The position numbers were made by a program. DNA of 7,479 nucleotides. Source: Candidatus Nanohalobium sp. GTDB lineage: Archaea; Nanohalarchaeota; Nanosalinia; Nanosalinales; Nanosalinaceae. Of this stretch, positions 3,001 through 7,479 are shown one piece after another. Positions within the stretch are counted from its first letter, which is position 1. Every line of letters starts with the position of its first letter. The stretch lies in the NCBI GenBank assembly GCA_042217545.1, contig JBDGSM010000035.1, forward strand, positions 1-7,479, read 5' to 3'.

Positions 3001-6000
3001 GGGAAGACAGAGGATAAGCGTAGAAGTAATAAAGTAAAAAGCAAGCCTCCAAGTCCGAGGCCTTTCCTAGTTACCGAAGCTCTCCAGGATCTTAATCATA
3101 CGGTCGTTCTGCTCGATAATCCTATCCAGTTTATCCTCTAAACCAGAGGTATCGCCGGAAAGACCTTCAGAAGAATTAACGCCAGCATTTCCGCTCTGAG
3201 AGGCCTCTACCTCGTTTCTATCATTTACCTGGTTCTTTGACTGACTTGAAACCTGCTGGCCTCTTTCACGGGTCTGCCTGGTTCTCTGGCTTTTTCCAGA
3301 TCTCTGCTGCCGCTGCTTCGAAGGTGCTTCAGGCCTCAAACCGTCTTCCTCCAGGACCTCGATAGGCGTATCATCGCCGTCCTCCTCTTCCTCCACATCA
3401 TTGTCCTGCGCGGCCTCCCTCAGAGTATCAAAGTTTCCACCGTTACCTGGAGAACTGCTTTCCCCGGAATCCGAGGCCTCTGAGTCCTCATCGCTGTTTT
3501 CCTCTCTTATAGAATCCTTCACGTTGTCATAGTACCCCATTCATGTCACCTTCATCCTTCAACTCGGACCTGATGTCCTTAAGTATACTTTTGATCTGCT
3601 TGTTCTGCCTGTGAATATCCTCAAGGCTTACATCACCACTACTGCTTCCTGAACGTGAAGATCTGGAGCTACCGGAGGAGGAACTGCTTCCTGAACCCAT
3701 TCCAGGCAGCATACCCGAAGTATCCTGCTCGGAAGAACCAGAATCGCTGGAATCGCCGCCTGTCAAACGTGCCTCGGCCTCATCCCTCAGGTTCCCGGCT
3801 TCCGCTTCCCCGTTTTCATCAGGTACCGAAAGAGTTACCTCTTCAGTATTCTCATCATCGTCTTTTCCATCTCCACGATCGAAAAAGCCCATCACATAAG
3901 ATTGGTCAGGCCCTAAATAAAAGGTTTCACCGGGAAAAAGACAAACATGGAGATAAACGTCAAACCCACGGAAAAAATCCAGCTCCTCAAAGAAGAGATC
4001 GAGAGAAGAGAAGGAAACGCAGAAATCAAGGACGGAGAAATAATAGTAGAAGCAGAAGACACGGAGTTCCTCGAAAAAATCCCCGGCATCAAAGAATACA
4101 CGGCAGAAGGAGAAACCCGGGAAGGCCTCAAGGGAAGACCGGTCCAGGAACAGGCCTACATCAGGATCGAATCAAGAAGGGACGCTGTAAAGGCCCTTCT
4201 AGCCACGATGGACGGCTACAACCTTGTGGTCCTGAACTCGGGACGTGAATGGGACCTGAGAAAACTGAAGGAGTACAACCCGGATATCAAACACCTGAAG
4301 CAGGACGAACCTGTAGAGTTCCTGGACGTGGAGAAAGCGGTCGGAGAAATAGAAGGCCTCGAAGAAGTGGAGATTGAGGTCTCTGAGGAAGAAGTTGAAC
4401 TTGCCTACCGCGAGATGCTTACATAGATGGAACTTCTCAGGAACTATAAAACCGCATTAGATCAAAAACTTAAAACTAATTCACCCCCCTTATACTTAGT
4501 GGTAGTTATGGAAAAGGACGTAGATTTCGACCGCGTCGAATACGCAACCAACAGAAAGCTTGAGAACGATGAAGGAGAGGAGACCGGACATATCAAGATG
4601 TTCAGTTACGACAAAGAAATCTTCTTCCTCGACATGAAATGTCCATACTGCGGAGAAGAGTTCGAAAAGCACGACGTGGAACTCGGATCAAGGCCATGGT
4701 GGATCGAATGCCCTGAATGCACACGTTCAACAAACGTCTACAGGATCAAAGACAAAGAAGAAAGAGAACAGGGCCCTGACGACGAAGAACTGCCAGACGA
4801 CGTCGACGCATAAACAGAAAGGTTTTCTATGAACCAGGACGACCGCACTAAACTTGTAGAGAAAGCGGAGGAAGCTATGCAGAACTCCTACAGGCCTGAT
4901 AGAGGAACAAAAGTCGGGGCCGCAGTCATGACACCAGAAGGAAAGGTTTTCGGAGGCTGCGTGGTCAAGACCGCGAACGAAGGCATGGGAACCTGCGCAG
5001 AAAGATGCGCGATCTACAACGCAGTAGCACACGGAGAACAGTTCTTCACCGCGGTCGCCATAACATCAGAAAAAGACACTTTCTTCAAACCGTGCGGCAT
5101 GTGCATGCAGCTCCTCAACGAGTTCGCACAGCACAGAGAGGAAAACGACATGGATATAGTCATGGCCAACGGCGGAGAGACGGAAACAGTCAAGCTCCAC
5201 GACCTGATACCAGAGACATACGGACCGGAACAGAAATACGAAGATCCCAAGTACGGGACAGACTAGAAAAAGGCCTCAGAACAAAATTTCCTGCTGCTGA
5301 ACATGTTTTCTTTCCTCATCAAGAAGTTCCTCCACTTTCTCAGCCAGTCTCTCACCGTATTCTTCTAGATCATCTATTTCTGAAACTGTAAGGCCTGTAC
5401 CCTTCGACTTCGACAACGGCTTACCTTCTTCATCAGCGATCATCGGCGCCAGAAAATAAGCAGGTGTCTCACCGGTAGCCAGCTTAGTGATTTTCGCCAC
5501 TTTCACGATCTTAGACGTCTTCTGCTCCTTCGCCGCATCCCTGTAATCGCCGCCGAACACGTGAACAGAAACATCTCTACTAGGATCACGCACCGGATCC
5601 ACCAGATAATACACACCTATTTTCCCATCAAGCTGGCCGCGCGAGAAACCCTCACCACAGGCCTTATTCCGGCAACTCGCGACAAGTTCTCCCGACTCAG
5701 AGCTATAAGGTGCCCCCTTAGCGTGGGAGAAACCACAGTTGTCACAGACGTTCACGACAGGGCTACGATAACGCCTCCTGAAACCACCGCCGAAGATCTC
5801 ATCAAACTCATCCATATTCTCAAGAACGCTAGACAAGGCCTCACGGTAGCCCTCAGAGTCCAGCTCAGATAAAAAATCGGCCTCAACTTCCTCACCGGTA
5901 AAATTTTCCAGGCCGTCCAGGAAAGGCCTTATCTCCTCCACACGATGCTCCGCGACGTTACCATGCTCGTTACATGGACAGTCCCTCTCGAAGAAAAGCC

Positions 6001-7479
6001 GCATAACATCGCTGTTTTCAGGCCTGTGGTTCTCGTGTATATGAGCCGACCAGTCCGTATCACAGCAGAAAAGATCTAATTCAAGGCCTAACCTTGAAGC
6101 GATGACAGAAGAATAAGCCAATGTCAACAGATTCCCGACGTGAAGCTCGCCGGAAGGCCTGAAACCTACGGATAAACGCCTACCTGAGGCCTCGAAAACC
6201 TGAAGTTGTTCGAAACTTGAAGTGATTTGGAAGTCTTCTTTCATACTTCCAGAAAGGTTGTTCAAGATTCAAAACTTTACTCTGCAAACTTTTTGAACTC
6301 CGGAGCAGAAAATCCTGTCTATGATTAAACACTTCTCTAGCACCAGGAACTCTTATAGAGATGAAATCCTCGAAGTCATGGAGAAAAACAACGAGGAGAC
6401 CACGCCATCTATCCAGGAGATGACAAACAAATGGGTAGCAGAAGAAGAGTTAGGCCTGGAAGATGCGGTCGAAAAGTTCTACGAGGAGAGAACAGATCAA
6501 GTACTTCTTTACCATGAAAAAGGCCTTTTGAAGGGATTTTTCCTCCTCGAGGAAAATGATGAGGATCTGAAAGAGAAGATCCCGCAGTACTGGCCACATA
6601 TCGAAGTAGCCCTCGGAATCGTAAAACAAGAATTTAGAGGAAAAGGAATCGCTCAGAGGCTTTTCGAGGAAACAGAGAAAATAATGAATAAGGAAGGCCT
6701 CGAAAACCTGGTATGGGTAACATCTACAGCAAACAAGGCCTCACAGAACTTTGCCCAGAAGCAGGGACTTGAAGAAGCAACAAAATTTTCTGAAGACAGG
6801 GAAGACGACCAGAAAACAGTTATACTTGCCAAAAAGGTTTGAAAAACTCTTTCTGGAAAGAGGACCGAGGCCTCCGTGTTAAAAAGTTGACAGTCCTTTT
6901 CATTTCCTACATCAACACCTTTACGGTTGAGATGTGTACGGTAGCCCAGAAAAGCTTGGCGGCTGGCTGGGCTATAACCACTTATTTCTGATAAAGTTGC
7001 ATTCAAGACCAGAATTTACGCTGGTATATAACAGTTGAGGCCTCAAACCCTAGACGGTTACTGGGAGGCGTTTGTGAGGCGCACTCCCGGAATACCAACT
7101 CAGGAAAGCCCTTCAAGGCTTTCTCGGAGCACAGGGGTTTGTTGATCCCAGCTCCTAATGAGTTCCTACTTTTACCACAGAAAACTAACTTCAGAAAATC
7201 AAAACCAAAGGCCTTCCTATAGCCCACCATATTTAACAGTTAACGCCACCACCAAACTTACCTACAGGCCTCGATAGCTCAGCCTGGCTAGAGCAGCTCC
7301 CTTGTAACAACTGGTTACCGCATCTTCCGCACAGCGGAAGCATGCTGAAAGCAGGCCTTCAAAAGTGAAGCCTGCGGCGCTCAGGTTGGCACGCAAAGAG
7401 CCATTCTATGAATGGCTCACGTAGAACGTGTCAAACGCAAGATAGGAGCAGGTCGAGGGTTCAAATCCCTCTCGGGGCT

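What a model noticed while it worked through the whole genome (the two positions that open the first line are those of the whole stretch)
5276..6244. Nanohaloarchaeal truncated class I LysRS paralogue (catalytic core only) next to tRNA-Thr(UGU)
g00602 (322 aa) is a third lysyl-tRNA-synthetase-like gene beside a full class I (g00279) and a class II LysRS (g00300). It keeps the Rossmann catalytic core with HIGH-type and KMSKS-type signature motifs and two Cys clusters but lacks the whole anticodon-binding half, like GluQRS/YadB or MshC among other class I paralogues. The family is seen only in Nanohaloarchaeota, is very conserved (57-90% identity) yet patchy, and often sits divergently beside the tRNA-Thr(UGU) gene.
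Evidence so far: Pfam tRNA-synt_1f only at E 1e-12 over residues 23-290, no Swiss-Prot hit. 159 homologues, all named ones Nanohaloarchaea, the 120 listed 257-345 aa, annotated hypothetical or LysRS class I. 30-sequence alignment: invariant H35 and N38 in the HIGH-type motif, L277, S278, K279, S280, and C89, C91, H94, H100, C167, C170, C191, C196. AF2 model pLDDT 81, pTM 0.84; best PDB match class I LysRS 1irx (E 7e-12, TM 0.62, 17% identity), then GluRS, GluQRS 4a91, CysRS/MshC, TyrRS. Present in 28 of 70 Nanosalinales, absent from closed same-genus G040. In 12 loci (G000 included) a g00600 homologue lies beside it in 12, a g00599 homologue in 9, and a tRNA-Thr(tgt) is called within 1.1 kb in 7.
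(Added by a program. Inside this text positions count along the whole contig: contig position 1 is position 1 of the stretch shown here. "Call 12" and the like, gene names such as g00115 and contig names such as C1 are that model's own, and its searches are not shown. The text may have been shortened before it was handed on; [...] marks where a part breaks off. The agent that wrote the report below was given it as the finding of a first reader that could run no searches.)

Follow-up and report, generated by a model that had tools for sequence, protein, structure and literature searches.

The report
Core-only class I LysRS paralogue
This gene encodes a shortened, well-conserved copy of the catalytic half of the archaeal lysine-tRNA ligase with a rebuilt amino-acid pocket; it belongs to an uncharacterised family found in many tiny symbiotic archaea, so it probably does a job other than charging tRNA with lysine.

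Summary
The gene is real: 5276-6244 (-), 322 aa, under purifying selection (dN/dS 0.06-0.15). It is a third LysRS-like gene beside a full class I and a class II LysRS. It keeps the class I core, the H-x-G-N and S-K-S ATP motifs and a Cys4 knuckle. It lacks the whole anticodon-binding half. All five positions recalled as holding lysine in LysRS-I are replaced (T29R, E41T, W218Y, H240Y, Y268A).

First, the family is not confined to Nanohaloarchaea: about 60 distant clusters of the same length exist, in other DPANN archaea and on a Macrococcus plasmid. Second, the tRNA-Thr(UGU) and zinc-ribbon neighbours are backbone synteny, present without the gene. In this window a GNAT gene separates gene and tRNA by 1 kb.

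New lead: in five diverged DPANN contigs the relative lies between gatD and gatE or gatB.

My best guess (about 0.3) is an ATP-dependent, non-lysine aminoacyl ligase acting on a tRNA-linked acceptor in the indirect glutamine pathway. The main rival is a small-molecule ligase like MshC or BshC. The function is untested.

This scan noted the same family before on another genome (e1-4316869).

The parts
5276..6244 (-). CDS of the core-only class I LysRS paralogue (322 aa; stop codon included; alternative TTG start at 6265)
   Evidence: ORF. PF01921 E 8.1e-12. 159 homologues. dN/dS 0.06-0.15 in 7 pairs. AF2 pLDDT 92.1.
6131..6166 (-). Residues 27-38, G-F-R-P-S-G-E-L-H-V-G-N: the HIGH-type ATP motif (H35-V-G-N38) preceded by the family-specific R29
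   Evidence: Coordinates checked. H35 is 1.00 in both the close and the distant set. G37 is 0.97 and 1.00. R29 is 1.00 in close and 0.61 in distant sequences, against T/S/G in LysRS-I.
6122..6124 (-). T41, at the position of the invariant Glu of class I LysRS (E41 of 1irx)
   Evidence: T at 0.70 (close) and 0.73 (distant), against E in 5 of 5 LysRS-I. Numbering.
5945..5980 (-). Residues 89-100, C-P-C-N-E-H-G-N-V-A-E-H, a block inherited from class I LysRS
   Evidence: The same block (C-P-C-x-x-H....E-H) is seen in LysRS-I sequences P0175, P0188 and P0183. The profile alignment to 1irx covers it.
5765..5782 (-). Residues 155-160, F-R-R-R-Y-R: a basic patch specific to the Nanohaloarchaeal clade; the aligned LysRS-I residues are mostly acidic or neutral
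   Evidence: R156 0.94, R157 0.93, R158 1.00. (net charge +4 in a protein of pI 4.76)..
5657..5746 (-). Residues 167-196, a Cys4 knuckle (C167, C170, C191, C196) in the insertion of the Rossmann fold
   Evidence: Cys in at least 0.92 of close and distant sequences and in 5 of 5 LysRS-I. Coordinates. The bound metal was not determined.
5543..5608 (-). Residues 213-234, Y-L-V-D-P-V-R-D...V-H-V-F-G-G-D-Y: the family signature replacing the W-R-V-D-W-P-M-R-W...F-E-P-G-G-K-D-H block of LysRS-I
   Evidence: Y213 (W in LysRS-I), D220 (W), H228 (E), G232 (K), Y234 (H). D220 is 1.00 in both sets, H228 is 1.00 and 0.96, Y234 is 1.00 and 0.92. Coordinates.
5480..5530 (-). Residues 239-255, a Lys-rich stretch that includes a 5-residue insertion absent from LysRS-I
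   Evidence: K239 0.99, K242 0.93, K245 0.99, K248 1.00; gaps in LysRS-I at 246-250. (net +5)..
5402..5419 (-). Residues 276-281, P-L-S-K-S-K: the KMSKS-type motif (K-M-S-K-S in distant members)
   Evidence: K279 is 1.00 in both sets; S280 is 0.99 and 0.82. Coordinates.
7268..7479 (+). Context only: tRNA-Thr(UGU) gene with a 139-nt intron after the anticodon; the contig ends at its 3' end
   Evidence: Rfam RF00005, 44.1 bits. ARAGORN in intron mode calls Thr(tgt). A homologous tRNA lies divergently upstream in 21 of 24 family-f1 loci, and also in genomes that lack the paralogue.
6321..6842 (+). Context only: a GNAT acetyltransferase gene between the paralogue and the tRNA, apparently specific to this genome
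   Evidence: Pfam PF00583 E 2.7e-9. No DNA or translated match in any other fetched locus. One weak, non-syntenic BLASTP hit in 27 loci.
4427..4813 (+).
   Evidence: Found in 58 of 70 genomes and 28 of 28 high-quality ones. Lies beside the paralogue in 22 of 27 fetched loci.

Best explanation
Shown. The gene encodes a functional stand-alone catalytic core derived from class I lysyl-tRNA synthetase. It belongs to an old family of core-only paralogues of about 310-390 aa. On the tree this family is separate from true LysRS-I, and it occurs well beyond Nanohaloarchaea. The protein keeps the ATP-handling signatures (H35-x-G37-N38; S278-K279-S280) and the Cys4 knuckle. It has lost the anticodon-binding half. 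It has different residues at every position that I recall as holding lysine in LysRS-I (T29R, E41T, W218Y, H240Y, Y268A), and it has new invariant residues D220 and H228.

Inferred. It still makes an aminoacyl-adenylate from ATP, using an amino acid other than lysine. From R29 and the gene context I guess an acidic amino acid such as glutamate. It then passes the aminoacyl group to an acceptor that it cannot select by anticodon.

Most likely acceptor (inferred, weak). The acceptor is a tRNA or tRNA-bound substrate of the indirect Glu-to-Gln pathway, possibly presented by the amidotransferase. The reason is that in a related DPANN clade of the same sub-tree the gene sits between gatD and gatE, directly upstream of gatE. 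In Nanohaloarchaea the function is accessory: the gene was probably ancestral in the main family and has been lost repeatedly from one fixed site.

The confidence figure refers to this mechanism. I would put about 0.95 on the gene being a real, selected LysRS-I-core paralogue that does not act as a normal LysRS.
For: The gene is real and selected. dN/dS is 0.06-0.15 in 7 of 8 pairs (dS undefined in 1). Identity across loci is 46-87%, similar to core neighbours.

Family and fold. PF01921 E 8.1e-12. A profile of 40 distant members hits 1irx at E 1.1e-10. VIA-align gives 1irx Z 20.0, aligned only to chain residues 4-319 of 507. The tree separates the truncated family from LysRS-I at 100/100.

ATP motifs are kept in 120 close and 49 distant sequences: H35 1.00 and 1.00; G37 0.97 and 1.00; K279 1.00 and 1.00. 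The pocket positions are replaced (numbering).

The family is wider than the phylum.

gat context. I annotated 18 metagenome loci. In 4 of them (L081, L082, L091, L097) the relative lies 33-49 nt upstream of gatE on the same strand. In 1 (L086) it lies 39 nt upstream of gatB. gatD lies 1-3 genes upstream in all five; the L091 copy is a fragment at the contig end. GatE, GatB and GatD pass NCBIfam equivalog cut-offs where I tested them. The five proteins are only 32-49% identical to each other. All five fall in one 19-row clade (81/82), inside the 45-row sub-tree that also holds the Nanohaloarchaeal clade (94/43). Other neighbours of distant members are also translation genes: ThrRS, ND-AspRS, ProRS and the L13-S9 operon.

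Conserved basic patches sit in an otherwise acidic protein.

Accessory status. The gene is in 28 of 70 genomes and missing from three closed ones. It holds the same position in 22 family-f1 loci.
Against: No biochemical data exist.

In Nanohaloarchaea the gene is not next to gat genes: no gat gene was among the neighbours compared in the 27 fetched loci or annotated in the window. GatB/GatE-type genes are in 68 of 70 genomes whether or not the paralogue is present. The own genome has an ordinary GluRS. So the paralogue is not needed for the pathway.

Within the gat-containing clade, 4 other loci (L079, L083-L085) lack the linkage. The five linked contigs are kin, so conserved order may partly be inherited synteny.

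Support for joining the Nanohaloarchaeal clade to the gat clade is weak (94/43).

The roles of the five 'lysine' residues are recalled, not read here. The role proposed for R29 is a guess made without model coordinates.

Two results point towards small-molecule chemistry. The second-best fold match is BshC, a putative small-molecule cysteine ligase (Z 16.3). A bacterial homologue sits in an ATP-grasp/MFS operon.

Binding to GatE was never tested, because the job was not accepted.
Confidence: 0.3

Rival explanations
1. Small-molecule (or protein) aminoacyl ligase. The core activates an amino acid with ATP and joins it to an amine or hydroxyl of a metabolite or protein, as MshC does for mycothiol and as proposed for BshC. 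It has no role in translation.
For: ATP motifs are kept and the anticodon-binding domain is lost. BshC (4wbd) is the second-best structural match: Z 16.3, 272 residues aligned, above GluRS at 12.8; MshC gives Z 11.2. A true bacterial homologue (hhalign probability 98.5%, E 3.7e-15) lies in an operon of two ATP-grasp ligases with an MFS transporter on a Macrococcus plasmid. The patchy distribution fits an accessory metabolite.
Against: No biosynthetic partner is conserved next to the gene in Nanohaloarchaea. Its neighbours there are core genes or lineage-specific inserts. Nanohaloarchaea have very small genomes of about 1 Mb with little biosynthesis (genome sizes; the rest is general knowledge). 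Archaeal relatives mostly sit among translation genes. Identity to BshC is 7%. No Pfam family other than PF01921 matches at E <= 0.01.
Confidence: 0.25
2. Aminoacyl-tRNA-dependent transferase. The core no longer activates amino acids. It binds an already charged tRNA and moves its amino acid to another acceptor, as cyclodipeptide synthases do, and as reported for BlsK of blasticidin S biosynthesis. That BlsK is LysRS-like is my recollection and was not checked.
For: Class I cores have been recruited in this way: cyclodipeptide synthases (PMC3105412, search listing and abstract only). BlsK is described as a [3Fe-4S], tRNA-dependent leucyl transferase (passages of PMC12710036). The family has an invariant Cys4 set that could bind a metal cluster. 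Atlas look-alike clusters of about 365 aa are mostly from Actinomycetota (leads only).
Against: H35, G37 and K279, which serve ATP chemistry in class I synthetases, are invariant across 169 sequences. A pure transferase would have no need to keep them. The Cys4 set is shared with ordinary LysRS-I. Homology to BlsK could not be tested: the paper was not held and no sequence was at hand.
Confidence: 0.1
3. The gene has a function specific to tRNA-Thr(UGU), such as charging or modifying the neighbouring intron-bearing tRNA. On this reading the conserved divergent arrangement reflects co-regulation.
For: A homologous tRNA-Thr(UGU) lies divergently 37-1009 nt upstream in 21 of 24 family-f1 loci. 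One distant relative has ThrRS directly upstream (L098).
Against: The same tRNA sits at the same backbone position, 64-823 nt from the zinc-ribbon gene, in 6 of 8 regions from genomes without the paralogue. In a seventh (G040) it lies 7.5 kb away behind an unrelated gene cluster. The eighth ends at a contig edge. No such tRNA is near the gene in 0 of 4 loci of the two other families, nor in the DPANN loci I annotated.
Confidence: 0.05
4. A spare or split lysyl-tRNA synthetase. The core still activates lysine and charges tRNA(Lys), alone or with a separate RNA-binding partner.
For: It is a clear LysRS-I homologue with intact ATP motifs. The genome shows other LysRS redundancy, with class I plus class II enzymes.
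Against: All five recalled lysine-contact positions are replaced. The invariant Glu41 is Thr in 70% of close and 73% of distant sequences. It scores 24.5 bits against the TIGR00467 cut-off of 147.55. No fragment resembling the C-terminal half of LysRS-I was seen beside it in any locus. Presence does not track LysRS-II: 9 shared genomes against 8.4 expected, Fisher p 0.79, and the genomes are kin and so not independent. Of the 11 genomes where full LysRS-I was not found, 1 has the paralogue.
Confidence: 0.05
5. A decaying remnant without function.
For: The distribution is patchy, and the gene is absent from closed genomes of the same or sister genera.
Against: dN/dS is 0.06-0.15. There are no internal stops in 28 genomes, although G020 and G037 each match in two pieces. 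Many residues are invariant across 120 sequences. The fold model is confident. The family is old and widespread.
Confidence: 0.02

Closest known systems
Class I lysyl-tRNA synthetase (LysK; Pfam PF01921, TIGR00467; PDB 1IRX)
   Same: Shares the Rossmann catalytic core, the H-[IV]-G-N signature, the C-x-x-C...C-x4-C knuckle in the insertion, the C/H...E-H block and the G-G-x-D motif. It is the best sequence, profile and fold match.
   Different: 322 aa against 535 aa. The structural alignment stops at residue 319 of 1irx, so the anticodon-binding half is absent. The recalled lysine-contact positions are all replaced, and D220 and H228 are new invariants. It scores far below the NCBIfam equivalog cut-offs. 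It forms a separate clade.
GluQRS / YadB (glutamyl-queuosine tRNA(Asp) synthetase; PDB 4A91)
   Same: Has the same architecture: a class I core of the Glu/Lys subclass without an anticodon-binding domain. GluQRS activates an amino acid and puts it on a modified tRNA base. Fold match Z 12.4. Weak local profile matches around the KMSKS region.
   Different: It derives from LysRS-I, not GluRS. It scores 15.4 bits against a cut-off of 276.7. Queuosine is a bacterial and eukaryotic base, and archaea use archaeosine (general knowledge), so the acceptor cannot be the same.
MshC and BshC (class I-like cysteine ligases of mycothiol and bacillithiol synthesis; PDB 8HFN, 4WBD)
   Same: Both are class I-type Rossmann cores used outside translation. 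BshC is the second-best structural match (Z 16.3); MshC gives Z 11.2. BshC's activity has also never been shown in vitro (passages of PMC4360819).
   Different: Identity is 7% (BshC) and 12% (MshC). There is no Pfam match to those families. BshC has a coiled-coil dimer domain that this protein lacks. No thiol-pathway partner genes lie nearby.
BlsK, the [3Fe-4S] tRNA-dependent leucyl transferase of blasticidin S synthesis
   Same: It may be a LysRS-like core-only protein with a Cys-bound metal cluster. The likeness to LysRS is recalled. The enzyme's activity is taken from passages of PMC12710036.
   Different: BlsK uses Leu-tRNA and needs no ATP-dependent activation, whereas this family keeps its ATP motifs. 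Homology was not tested: the primary paper PMC8325364 was not held.
EpmA / PoxA / GenX (class II LysRS paralogue that lysylates EF-P)
   Same: Follows the same evolutionary logic: a LysRS catalytic core without an anticodon domain, put to a new acceptor. A 2022 review table lists only class II-derived LysRS paralogues: LysU, PoxA and LysX (passages of PMC9437257).
   Different: The fold is unrelated (class II).

Membership tests
Class I lysyl-tRNA synthetase (LysK) | Class I Rossmann core with HIGH-type and KMSKS-type signatures | tested here: met
   PF01921 at 45.2 bits against a cut-off of 27. H35-V-G-N38 and S278-K279-S280 are conserved. Fold match to 1irx Z 20.0.
Class I lysyl-tRNA synthetase (LysK) | Reaches the curated whole-protein (equivalog) score | tested here: not met
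   TIGR00467 at 24.5 bits against 147.55. NF001968 at 28.2 bits against 648.
Class I lysyl-tRNA synthetase (LysK) | Anticodon-binding helical domain and C-terminal domain | tested here: not met
   322 aa against 535 aa. Matches Pfam profile positions 25-296 of 360 only. The structural alignment covers 1irx residues 4-319 of 507.
Class I lysyl-tRNA synthetase (LysK) | Lysine-binding residues (1irx T29, E41, W218, H240, Y268; their roles are recalled from the structural and mutational literature and were not read here) | tested here: not met
   The aligned residues are R29, T41, Y213, Y234 and A266, while LysRS-I has T/S/G, E, W, H (4 of 5) and Y at these columns (numbering).
Class I lysyl-tRNA synthetase (LysK) | Cys4 knuckle in the insertion of the Rossmann fold | tested here: met
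   C167, C170, C191 and C196 align with Cys in 5 of 5 LysRS-I sequences.
GluQRS (YadB) | Reaches the curated family score (TIGR03838) | tested here: not met
   15.4 bits against a cut-off of 276.7, matching residues 252-283 only.
GluQRS (YadB) | Glutamylates queuosine-34 of tRNA(Asp) | not testable with these tools
   Needs biochemistry. Archaea are not known to make queuosine (general knowledge).
MshC / BshC small-molecule cysteine ligases | Fold and sequence membership | tested here: inconclusive
   BshC Z 16.3 at 7% identity; MshC Z 11.2 at 12% identity. No Pfam family other than PF01921 matches at E <= 0.01.
MshC / BshC small-molecule cysteine ligases | Co-occurrence with the glycosyltransferase and deacetylase of the thiol pathway | not tested
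   No such genes were seen among the neighbours. No genome-wide search was made.
BlsK-type aminoacyl-tRNA-dependent transferase | Sequence homology to BlsK and an iron-sulfur cluster | not testable with these tools
   No BlsK sequence was at hand and the paper was not held. A Cys4 set is present, but the metal is unknown.
Core-only LysRS-I paralogue family (unnamed; this report) | About 310-390 aa; G-x-[RK..]-P-S-G-x-x-H-x-G; the D-P-x-R-D...H-[VI]-[FY]-G-G-D-Y block; (K)-M/L-S-K-S; Cys4 | tested here: met
   Alignments A1-A4. Conservation table. Clade support of 100/100 against LysRS-I.

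The most novel reading that the evidence does not exclude
The family is a new kind of split synthetase. 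It would be a core-only class I enzyme that serves as the dedicated mischarging module of an archaeal transamidosome. It would glutamylate tRNA(Gln) while the amidotransferase GatDE holds and selects the tRNA, so that tRNA recognition is outsourced to the partner and the Glu-tRNA(Gln) intermediate never leaves the complex. In Nanohaloarchaea the same enzyme would persist as an optional booster of Gln-tRNA(Gln) supply.
Probability: 0.12. Interest if true: 0.85.

Novelty: new variant of a known kind. Interest (0 to 1): 0.6.

Why it matters
Synthetase paralogues that lost their anticodon domain have repeatedly revealed new chemistry: GluQRS, PoxA/EpmA, MshC and the cyclodipeptide synthases.

I found no described function for any class I LysRS-derived paralogue. 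A 2022 review table lists only class II-derived ones (passages). Two full-text searches gave nothing relevant: 0 papers, and 10 papers with none on this topic judging by title and abstract start.

The family is kept under purifying selection in organisms with genomes of about 1 Mb, where most genes are indispensable. It also reaches across DPANN archaea.

The gatD-X-gatE arrangement gives a concrete hypothesis that can be tested at the bench. It bears on how tRNA-dependent glutamine formation is organised in archaea that lack GlnRS.

Tried and rejected
1. Functional link to tRNA-Thr(UGU): rejected as backbone synteny.

2. Link to the zinc-ribbon gene (g00600) and the 159-aa gene (g00599): the zinc-ribbon gene is a core gene, in 58 of 70 genomes. 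Neither gene is near the paralogue in 4 of 4 loci of the other two families.

3. Link to the cytidine deaminase or the GNAT: the deaminase has a homologue in 1 of 27 loci. The GNAT has none in synteny.

4. Amino-acid-kinase neighbour in three loci: it is UMP kinase in G003 and G004 and isopentenyl phosphate kinase in L093. These are different housekeeping enzymes, so I treat the adjacency as coincidence.

5. Co-occurrence with class II LysRS: none.

6. Co-occurrence with GatB/GatE: not informative, because both are core genes.

7. Anti-phage defence: no PADLOC match for the gene or for four neighbours.

8. RNA evidence: no RNA holder was listed.

9. Binding to GatE: the complex job (GatE alignment A5 with paralogue alignment A4, both from contig L082) was never accepted because the queue was full. 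There is no result of any kind.

10. A word-indexed search with the 40-sequence alignment gave only 4 proteins.

11. The viral-contig scan with that alignment could not run, because it has no conserved stretch.

12. Plasmid searches with the window protein, P0145 and P0151 gave no match.

13. Organism names for ten distant representatives: none on record. Their taxonomy therefore rests on neighbouring genes and on Atlas leads.

14. BlsK: the primary paper was not held, and a 2026 review of aa-tRNA-dependent enzymes does not mention it.

15. The Virgibacillus locus L012 was dismissed as a chance 40-residue match.

Full report
WHAT IS THERE

The window is a whole 7479-base contig, G000:C29. An ORF on the minus strand runs from 6265 (TTG) or 6244 (ATG) to 5276. 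Relatives are mostly 315-330 aa, which fits the ATG start and a 322-aa product.

Pfam finds only tRNA-synt_1f (class I LysRS): E 8.1e-12, 45.2 bits against a cut-off of 27, residues 23-290 on profile positions 25-296 of 360. NCBIfam's LysRS equivalogs are missed by a wide margin: 24.5 bits against 147.55, and 28.2 bits against 648.

The same genome holds several ordinary translation genes:
- a full class I LysRS of 535 aa, E 2.4e-121 to 1irx;
- a class II LysRS of 486 aa next to lysA;
- a non-discriminating-type AspRS;
- one GluRS;
- both GatB and GatE.

IS IT A LIVE GENE?

Yes. Pairwise dN/dS between loci is 0.06-0.15 in 7 of 8 pairs; in the eighth, dS could not be estimated. Identity across the 27 fetched loci is 46-87%, in the range of core neighbours. 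With a 66-sequence alignment, AlphaFold2 gives pLDDT 92.1 and pTM 0.91.

Fold matches are as follows:
- Foldseek ranks 1irx first: E 2.5e-11, TMq 0.65, 16% identity.
- VIA-align gives 1irx Z 20.0 with 269 residues aligned. Only chain residues 4-319 of 507 are matched, so the anticodon-binding half has no counterpart.
- BshC (4wbd) follows at Z 16.3.
- GluRS gives Z 12.8, CysRS 12.7, GluQRS 12.4 and MshC 11.2.

WHAT WAS KEPT AND WHAT WAS CHANGED

I aligned 120 close sequences, 49 distant sequences and 5 class I LysRS cores. Numbering was carried to 1irx through; by chance it coincides with the paralogue's own numbering at the N-terminus.

Kept in both close and distant sets:
- G27, P30-S31-G32, H35, G37 and D62;
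- the Cys4 set C167, C170, C191 and C196, which is also Cys in 5 of 5 LysRS-I;
- R219, G231, D233, K279 and S280.

The H-V-G-N signature is the LysRS-I form of HIGH. The family's K-M-S-K-S (P-L-S-K-S-K here) is, if anything, more canonical than the K-M/I-S-x-S of LysRS-I.

Changed:
- T29 to R: 1.00 in close and 0.61 in distant sequences, where other subfamilies have K, S, T, A, E or D;
- E41 to T;
- W218 to Y213;
- W226 to D220 (invariant);
- E234 to H228 (invariant);
- K238 to G232;
- H240 to Y234;
- Y268 to A/G266.

T29, E41, W218, H240 and Y268 are, as I recall from the P. horikoshii structure and the B. burgdorferi mutant work, the residues that hold lysine. On that basis the pocket no longer looks like a lysine pocket, while the ATP site looks intact.

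The C-P-C...H...E-H block at 89-100 also occurs in 3 of the 5 LysRS-I sequences. Neither 'Cys cluster' is therefore new.

The protein is acidic overall, with pI 4.76 against a proteome median of 4.78. It carries two conserved basic patches, at 155-160 and 239-255.

HOW WIDE IS THE FAMILY?

The word-indexed search returns 159 proteins. The 120 listed are 57-100% identical to the query (P0001 is the window's own protein), and all the named ones are Nanohaloarchaea. Within the phylum the gene is in 28 of 70 genomes, in 16 of 28 high-quality ones and in 17 of 32 genera. It is missing from closed G040, G032 and G065.

The exhaustive search of 1.84 billion representatives adds a long tail. It gave 69 hits at E <= 1e-3, of which 40 are at <= 1e-10. 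49 of the rows at 20-35% identity to the window protein are 300-400 aa long and were used in the alignment. They share the same motifs. They are not acid-rich, so they do not come from salt-in halophiles.

Their records carry no organism names. A metagenome scan with a 12-sequence alignment returned 30 loci. I dropped ten as too short or partial (L087-L089, L095, L096, L099, L103, L104, L106, L107). I dropped two more (L090, L094) because my ORF caller found no target ORF. That left 18 loci and 134 proteins for annotation.

Two of the 18 loci are Nanohaloarchaeal, at 58% and 65% identity to the window protein. Many of the rest carry archaeal markers: S13/S15-type and S9/L13 ribosomal proteins, RpoD, RLI, GatD and GatE. 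The GatE of contig L082 has 62-70% identical relatives that sources name as Pacearchaeota, Nanoarchaeota or Nanoarchaeia.

One relative lies on Macrococcus plasmids (tblastn E 6e-6 and 3e-5). It is confirmed by profile comparison, with probability 98.5% and E 3.7e-15. In the annotated one of the two plasmids (H1) it sits in an operon with two ATP-grasp enzymes, beside an MFS transporter.

Atlas look-alikes include clusters of about 283-369 aa from several bacterial phyla, named 'lysine--tRNA ligase family protein' or 'tRNA synthetases class I (K) domain-containing protein'. I treat these as leads only.

On a maximum-likelihood tree the truncated proteins form one clade against LysRS-I (100/100), and the Nanohaloarchaeal proteins form one clade (100/100). 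That clade sits, with weak support (94/43), in a 45-row group that also holds the DPANN sequences.

The claim of restriction to the phylum is therefore wrong. An earlier report of this scan on another genome (e1-4316869) reached the same view of a DPANN-wide family. My evidence for it is independent of that note.

THE NEIGHBOURHOOD IN NANOHALOARCHAEA

The fixed gene order is: glutaredoxin-like, NUDIX, OapA-like GTPase, OapB, OapC, a membrane protein, Amphi-Trp, one or two acidic proteins, the 159-aa protein, the zinc-ribbon protein, and then the paralogue. The zinc-ribbon end of this block lies beside the paralogue in 22 of 27 fetched loci, and the block is complete or near-complete where the contig allows. 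All 22 belong to the main family. The block is absent from 4 of 4 loci of the two other families.

The zinc-ribbon gene is in 58 of 70 genomes and in 28 of 28 high-quality ones. Its adjacency therefore says nothing about function.

A tRNA homologous to the window's tRNA-Thr(UGU) lies divergently upstream of the paralogue in 21 of 24 main-family loci. It is usually 37-150 nt away, and up to 1009 nt. Such a tRNA is near the gene in 0 of 4 loci of the other families (tRNA calls in 4, 35-37, 40).

I fetched the region around the zinc-ribbon gene from eight genomes that lack the paralogue:
- In six, the same tRNA lies 64-823 nt from the zinc-ribbon gene.
- In G040 it lies 7.5 kb away, behind a cluster of NikR, ParB-like, CobW, ParA-like, PLP-decarboxylase and SbnA-like/rhodanese genes. 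The conserved tRNA-upstream stretch identifies it as the same tRNA.
- One region ends at a contig edge.

The site between the zinc-ribbon gene and the tRNA is therefore variable. The paralogue occupies it in some genomes. In this genome it is joined by a cytidine deaminase and a GNAT gene with no counterpart elsewhere.

The simplest history is presence in the ancestor of the main family followed by repeated loss. That makes the function dispensable.

THE NEW CONTEXT LEAD

Among the 18 annotated metagenome loci, five show the relative embedded in the genes of the tRNA-dependent amidotransferases:
- In L081, L082, L091 and L097 it lies 33-49 nt upstream of gatE on the same strand.
- In L086 it lies 39 nt upstream of gatB, with gatE and gatD just before it.
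- gatD lies one to three genes upstream in all five. In L091 it is a fragment at the contig end.
- A small DUF1003 gene on the other strand often lies between them.
- A non-discriminating-type AspRS follows in L082 and L097.

GatE, GatB and GatD exceed NCBIfam equivalog cut-offs where I tested them. The five paralogues are only 32-49% identical to each other. All five fall within one 19-row clade (81/82). That clade also contains four loci without the linkage: L079, and L083-L085 behind the L13-S9 operon.

Other distant members lie next to ThrRS (L098), or between oapB and oapC among toxin-antitoxin genes (L105).

Gene order kept across this much divergence is fair evidence of a functional tie to the Glu-tRNA(Gln) amidotransferase. 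But the contigs are kin. The tie is not seen in Nanohaloarchaea. There, GatB- and GatE-type genes are in 68 of 70 genomes regardless of the paralogue.

MECHANISM

Shown: a selected, folded LysRS-I core without an anticodon reader, with the ATP motifs intact and the pocket residues replaced.

Inferred: adenylate formation with an amino acid other than lysine. My guess is that the amino acid is acidic. The reasons are the new arginine at position 29, on the strand that lines the pocket, the loss of the acidic residue at position 41, and the gat context.

Inferred, weaker: transfer to a tRNA-linked acceptor in the indirect glutamine pathway, with tRNA choice supplied by a partner.

As general knowledge, class I LysRS, like GluRS, GlnRS and ArgRS, needs tRNA to activate its amino acid. 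GluQRS shows that a core-only relative can drop that need and aim at a different site on tRNA.

The main rival is a small-molecule ligase in the manner of MshC or BshC. It is supported by the BshC fold match and the bacterial ATP-grasp operon.

A transferase that uses charged tRNA (cyclodipeptide synthases; BlsK) is less likely, because H35, G37 and K279 are invariant.

I could not test binding to GatE, because the complex job was never accepted.

KNOWN OR NEW?

Two full-text searches found nothing on such a protein. 'Nanohaloarchaea' with 'lysyl-tRNA synthetase' gave 0 papers. 'Class I lysyl-tRNA synthetase' with 'paralog' gave 10 papers, none relevant judging by title and abstract start.

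A 2022 review of synthetase duplicates lists only class II-derived LysRS paralogues (passages). A 2026 review of aa-tRNA-dependent enzymes mentions neither LysRS nor BlsK (term search).

BlsK may be a bacterial member of the family. That is a recollection I could not check.

I rate the finding as a new variant of a known kind, namely synthetase cores re-used for another acceptor. The function is open, and the gat linkage gives a testable hypothesis.

Noticed in passing
window 7268-7479 (+): The tRNA-Thr(UGU) gene carries a 139-nt intron just after the anticodon, and the contig ends exactly at its 3' end. ARAGORN with default settings misses it. In relatives the intron ranges from absent to about 210 nt, and ARAGORN in intron mode miscalls several copies as Ser or Ala.
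   Followed up: partly
window 944-2376 (+): An OapA-like GTPase, OapB and OapC (origin-associated proteins) lie in a row, so the contig may be close to a replication origin. The same block is conserved in 20-21 related loci.
   Followed up: no
window 6843-7267: A 425-nt stretch has no ORF of at least 60 aa running wholly within it and no Rfam match. Only its last 60 nt or so, just upstream of the tRNA, are conserved in relatives, which suggests the tRNA promoter. The rest has only a few short (33-76 nt) matches at unrelated places.
   Followed up: partly
L069 (G040:C1:889000-901000) 245-7778; also L093 1980-5705: In the closed same-genus genome that lacks the paralogue, a 7.5-kb cluster fills the same site. 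It holds NikR, ParB-like, CobW, ParA/NifH-like, PLP-decarboxylase and SbnA-like PLP enzyme with rhodanese genes, and may be a metal-chelator pathway. Part of the same cluster lies directly beside the paralogue in metagenome locus L093.
   Followed up: partly
G000:C17 (L108 1486-2943, -) and the phylum: Class II LysRS is patchy, in 21 of 70 genomes. It is present in 6 of the 11 genomes where a full class I LysRS was not found, for example G023 and G001, both over 90% complete. This suggests displacement of one LysRS class by the other within the phylum.
   Followed up: partly
L081 4194-5702, L082 7010-8458, L086 101-1528 (-), L091 2566-3987, L097 4243-5691: The DPANN GatE proteins are short, 474-503 aa against about 620 aa. 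They match the GatE model in two stretches, as if the insertion domain were missing. Longer relatives carry PF02938.
   Followed up: no
L077 (NZ_CP079986.1) 4470-8384: A Macrococcoides bohemicum plasmid carries an operon of two ATP-grasp enzymes, a homologue of the LysRS-core family and a small hypothetical protein. An MFS transporter and regulators lie beside it. It looks like a small peptide-type biosynthetic cluster.
   Followed up: partly
L064 (G013:C19) 1440-3197 (-): Here the open frame holding the paralogue is 586 aa, with a 278-aa N-terminal extension that has no Pfam match. It could be a fusion or a wrongly long start. A tRNA with an intron, called Lys(UUU), abuts its 3' end.
   Followed up: no
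L105 1973-7192: A distant family member lies between oapB and oapC together with PIN/RHH and MazF-type toxin-antitoxin genes. This echoes the Oap neighbourhood of the window in a very different lineage; the member is 21% identical to the window protein.
   Followed up: no
window 3067-3540 (-) and 3527-3895 (-): Two overlapping ORFs encode very acidic, Ser/Gly/Asp-rich proteins without family matches. They are nonetheless conserved at 30-55% identity in related loci.
   Followed up: no
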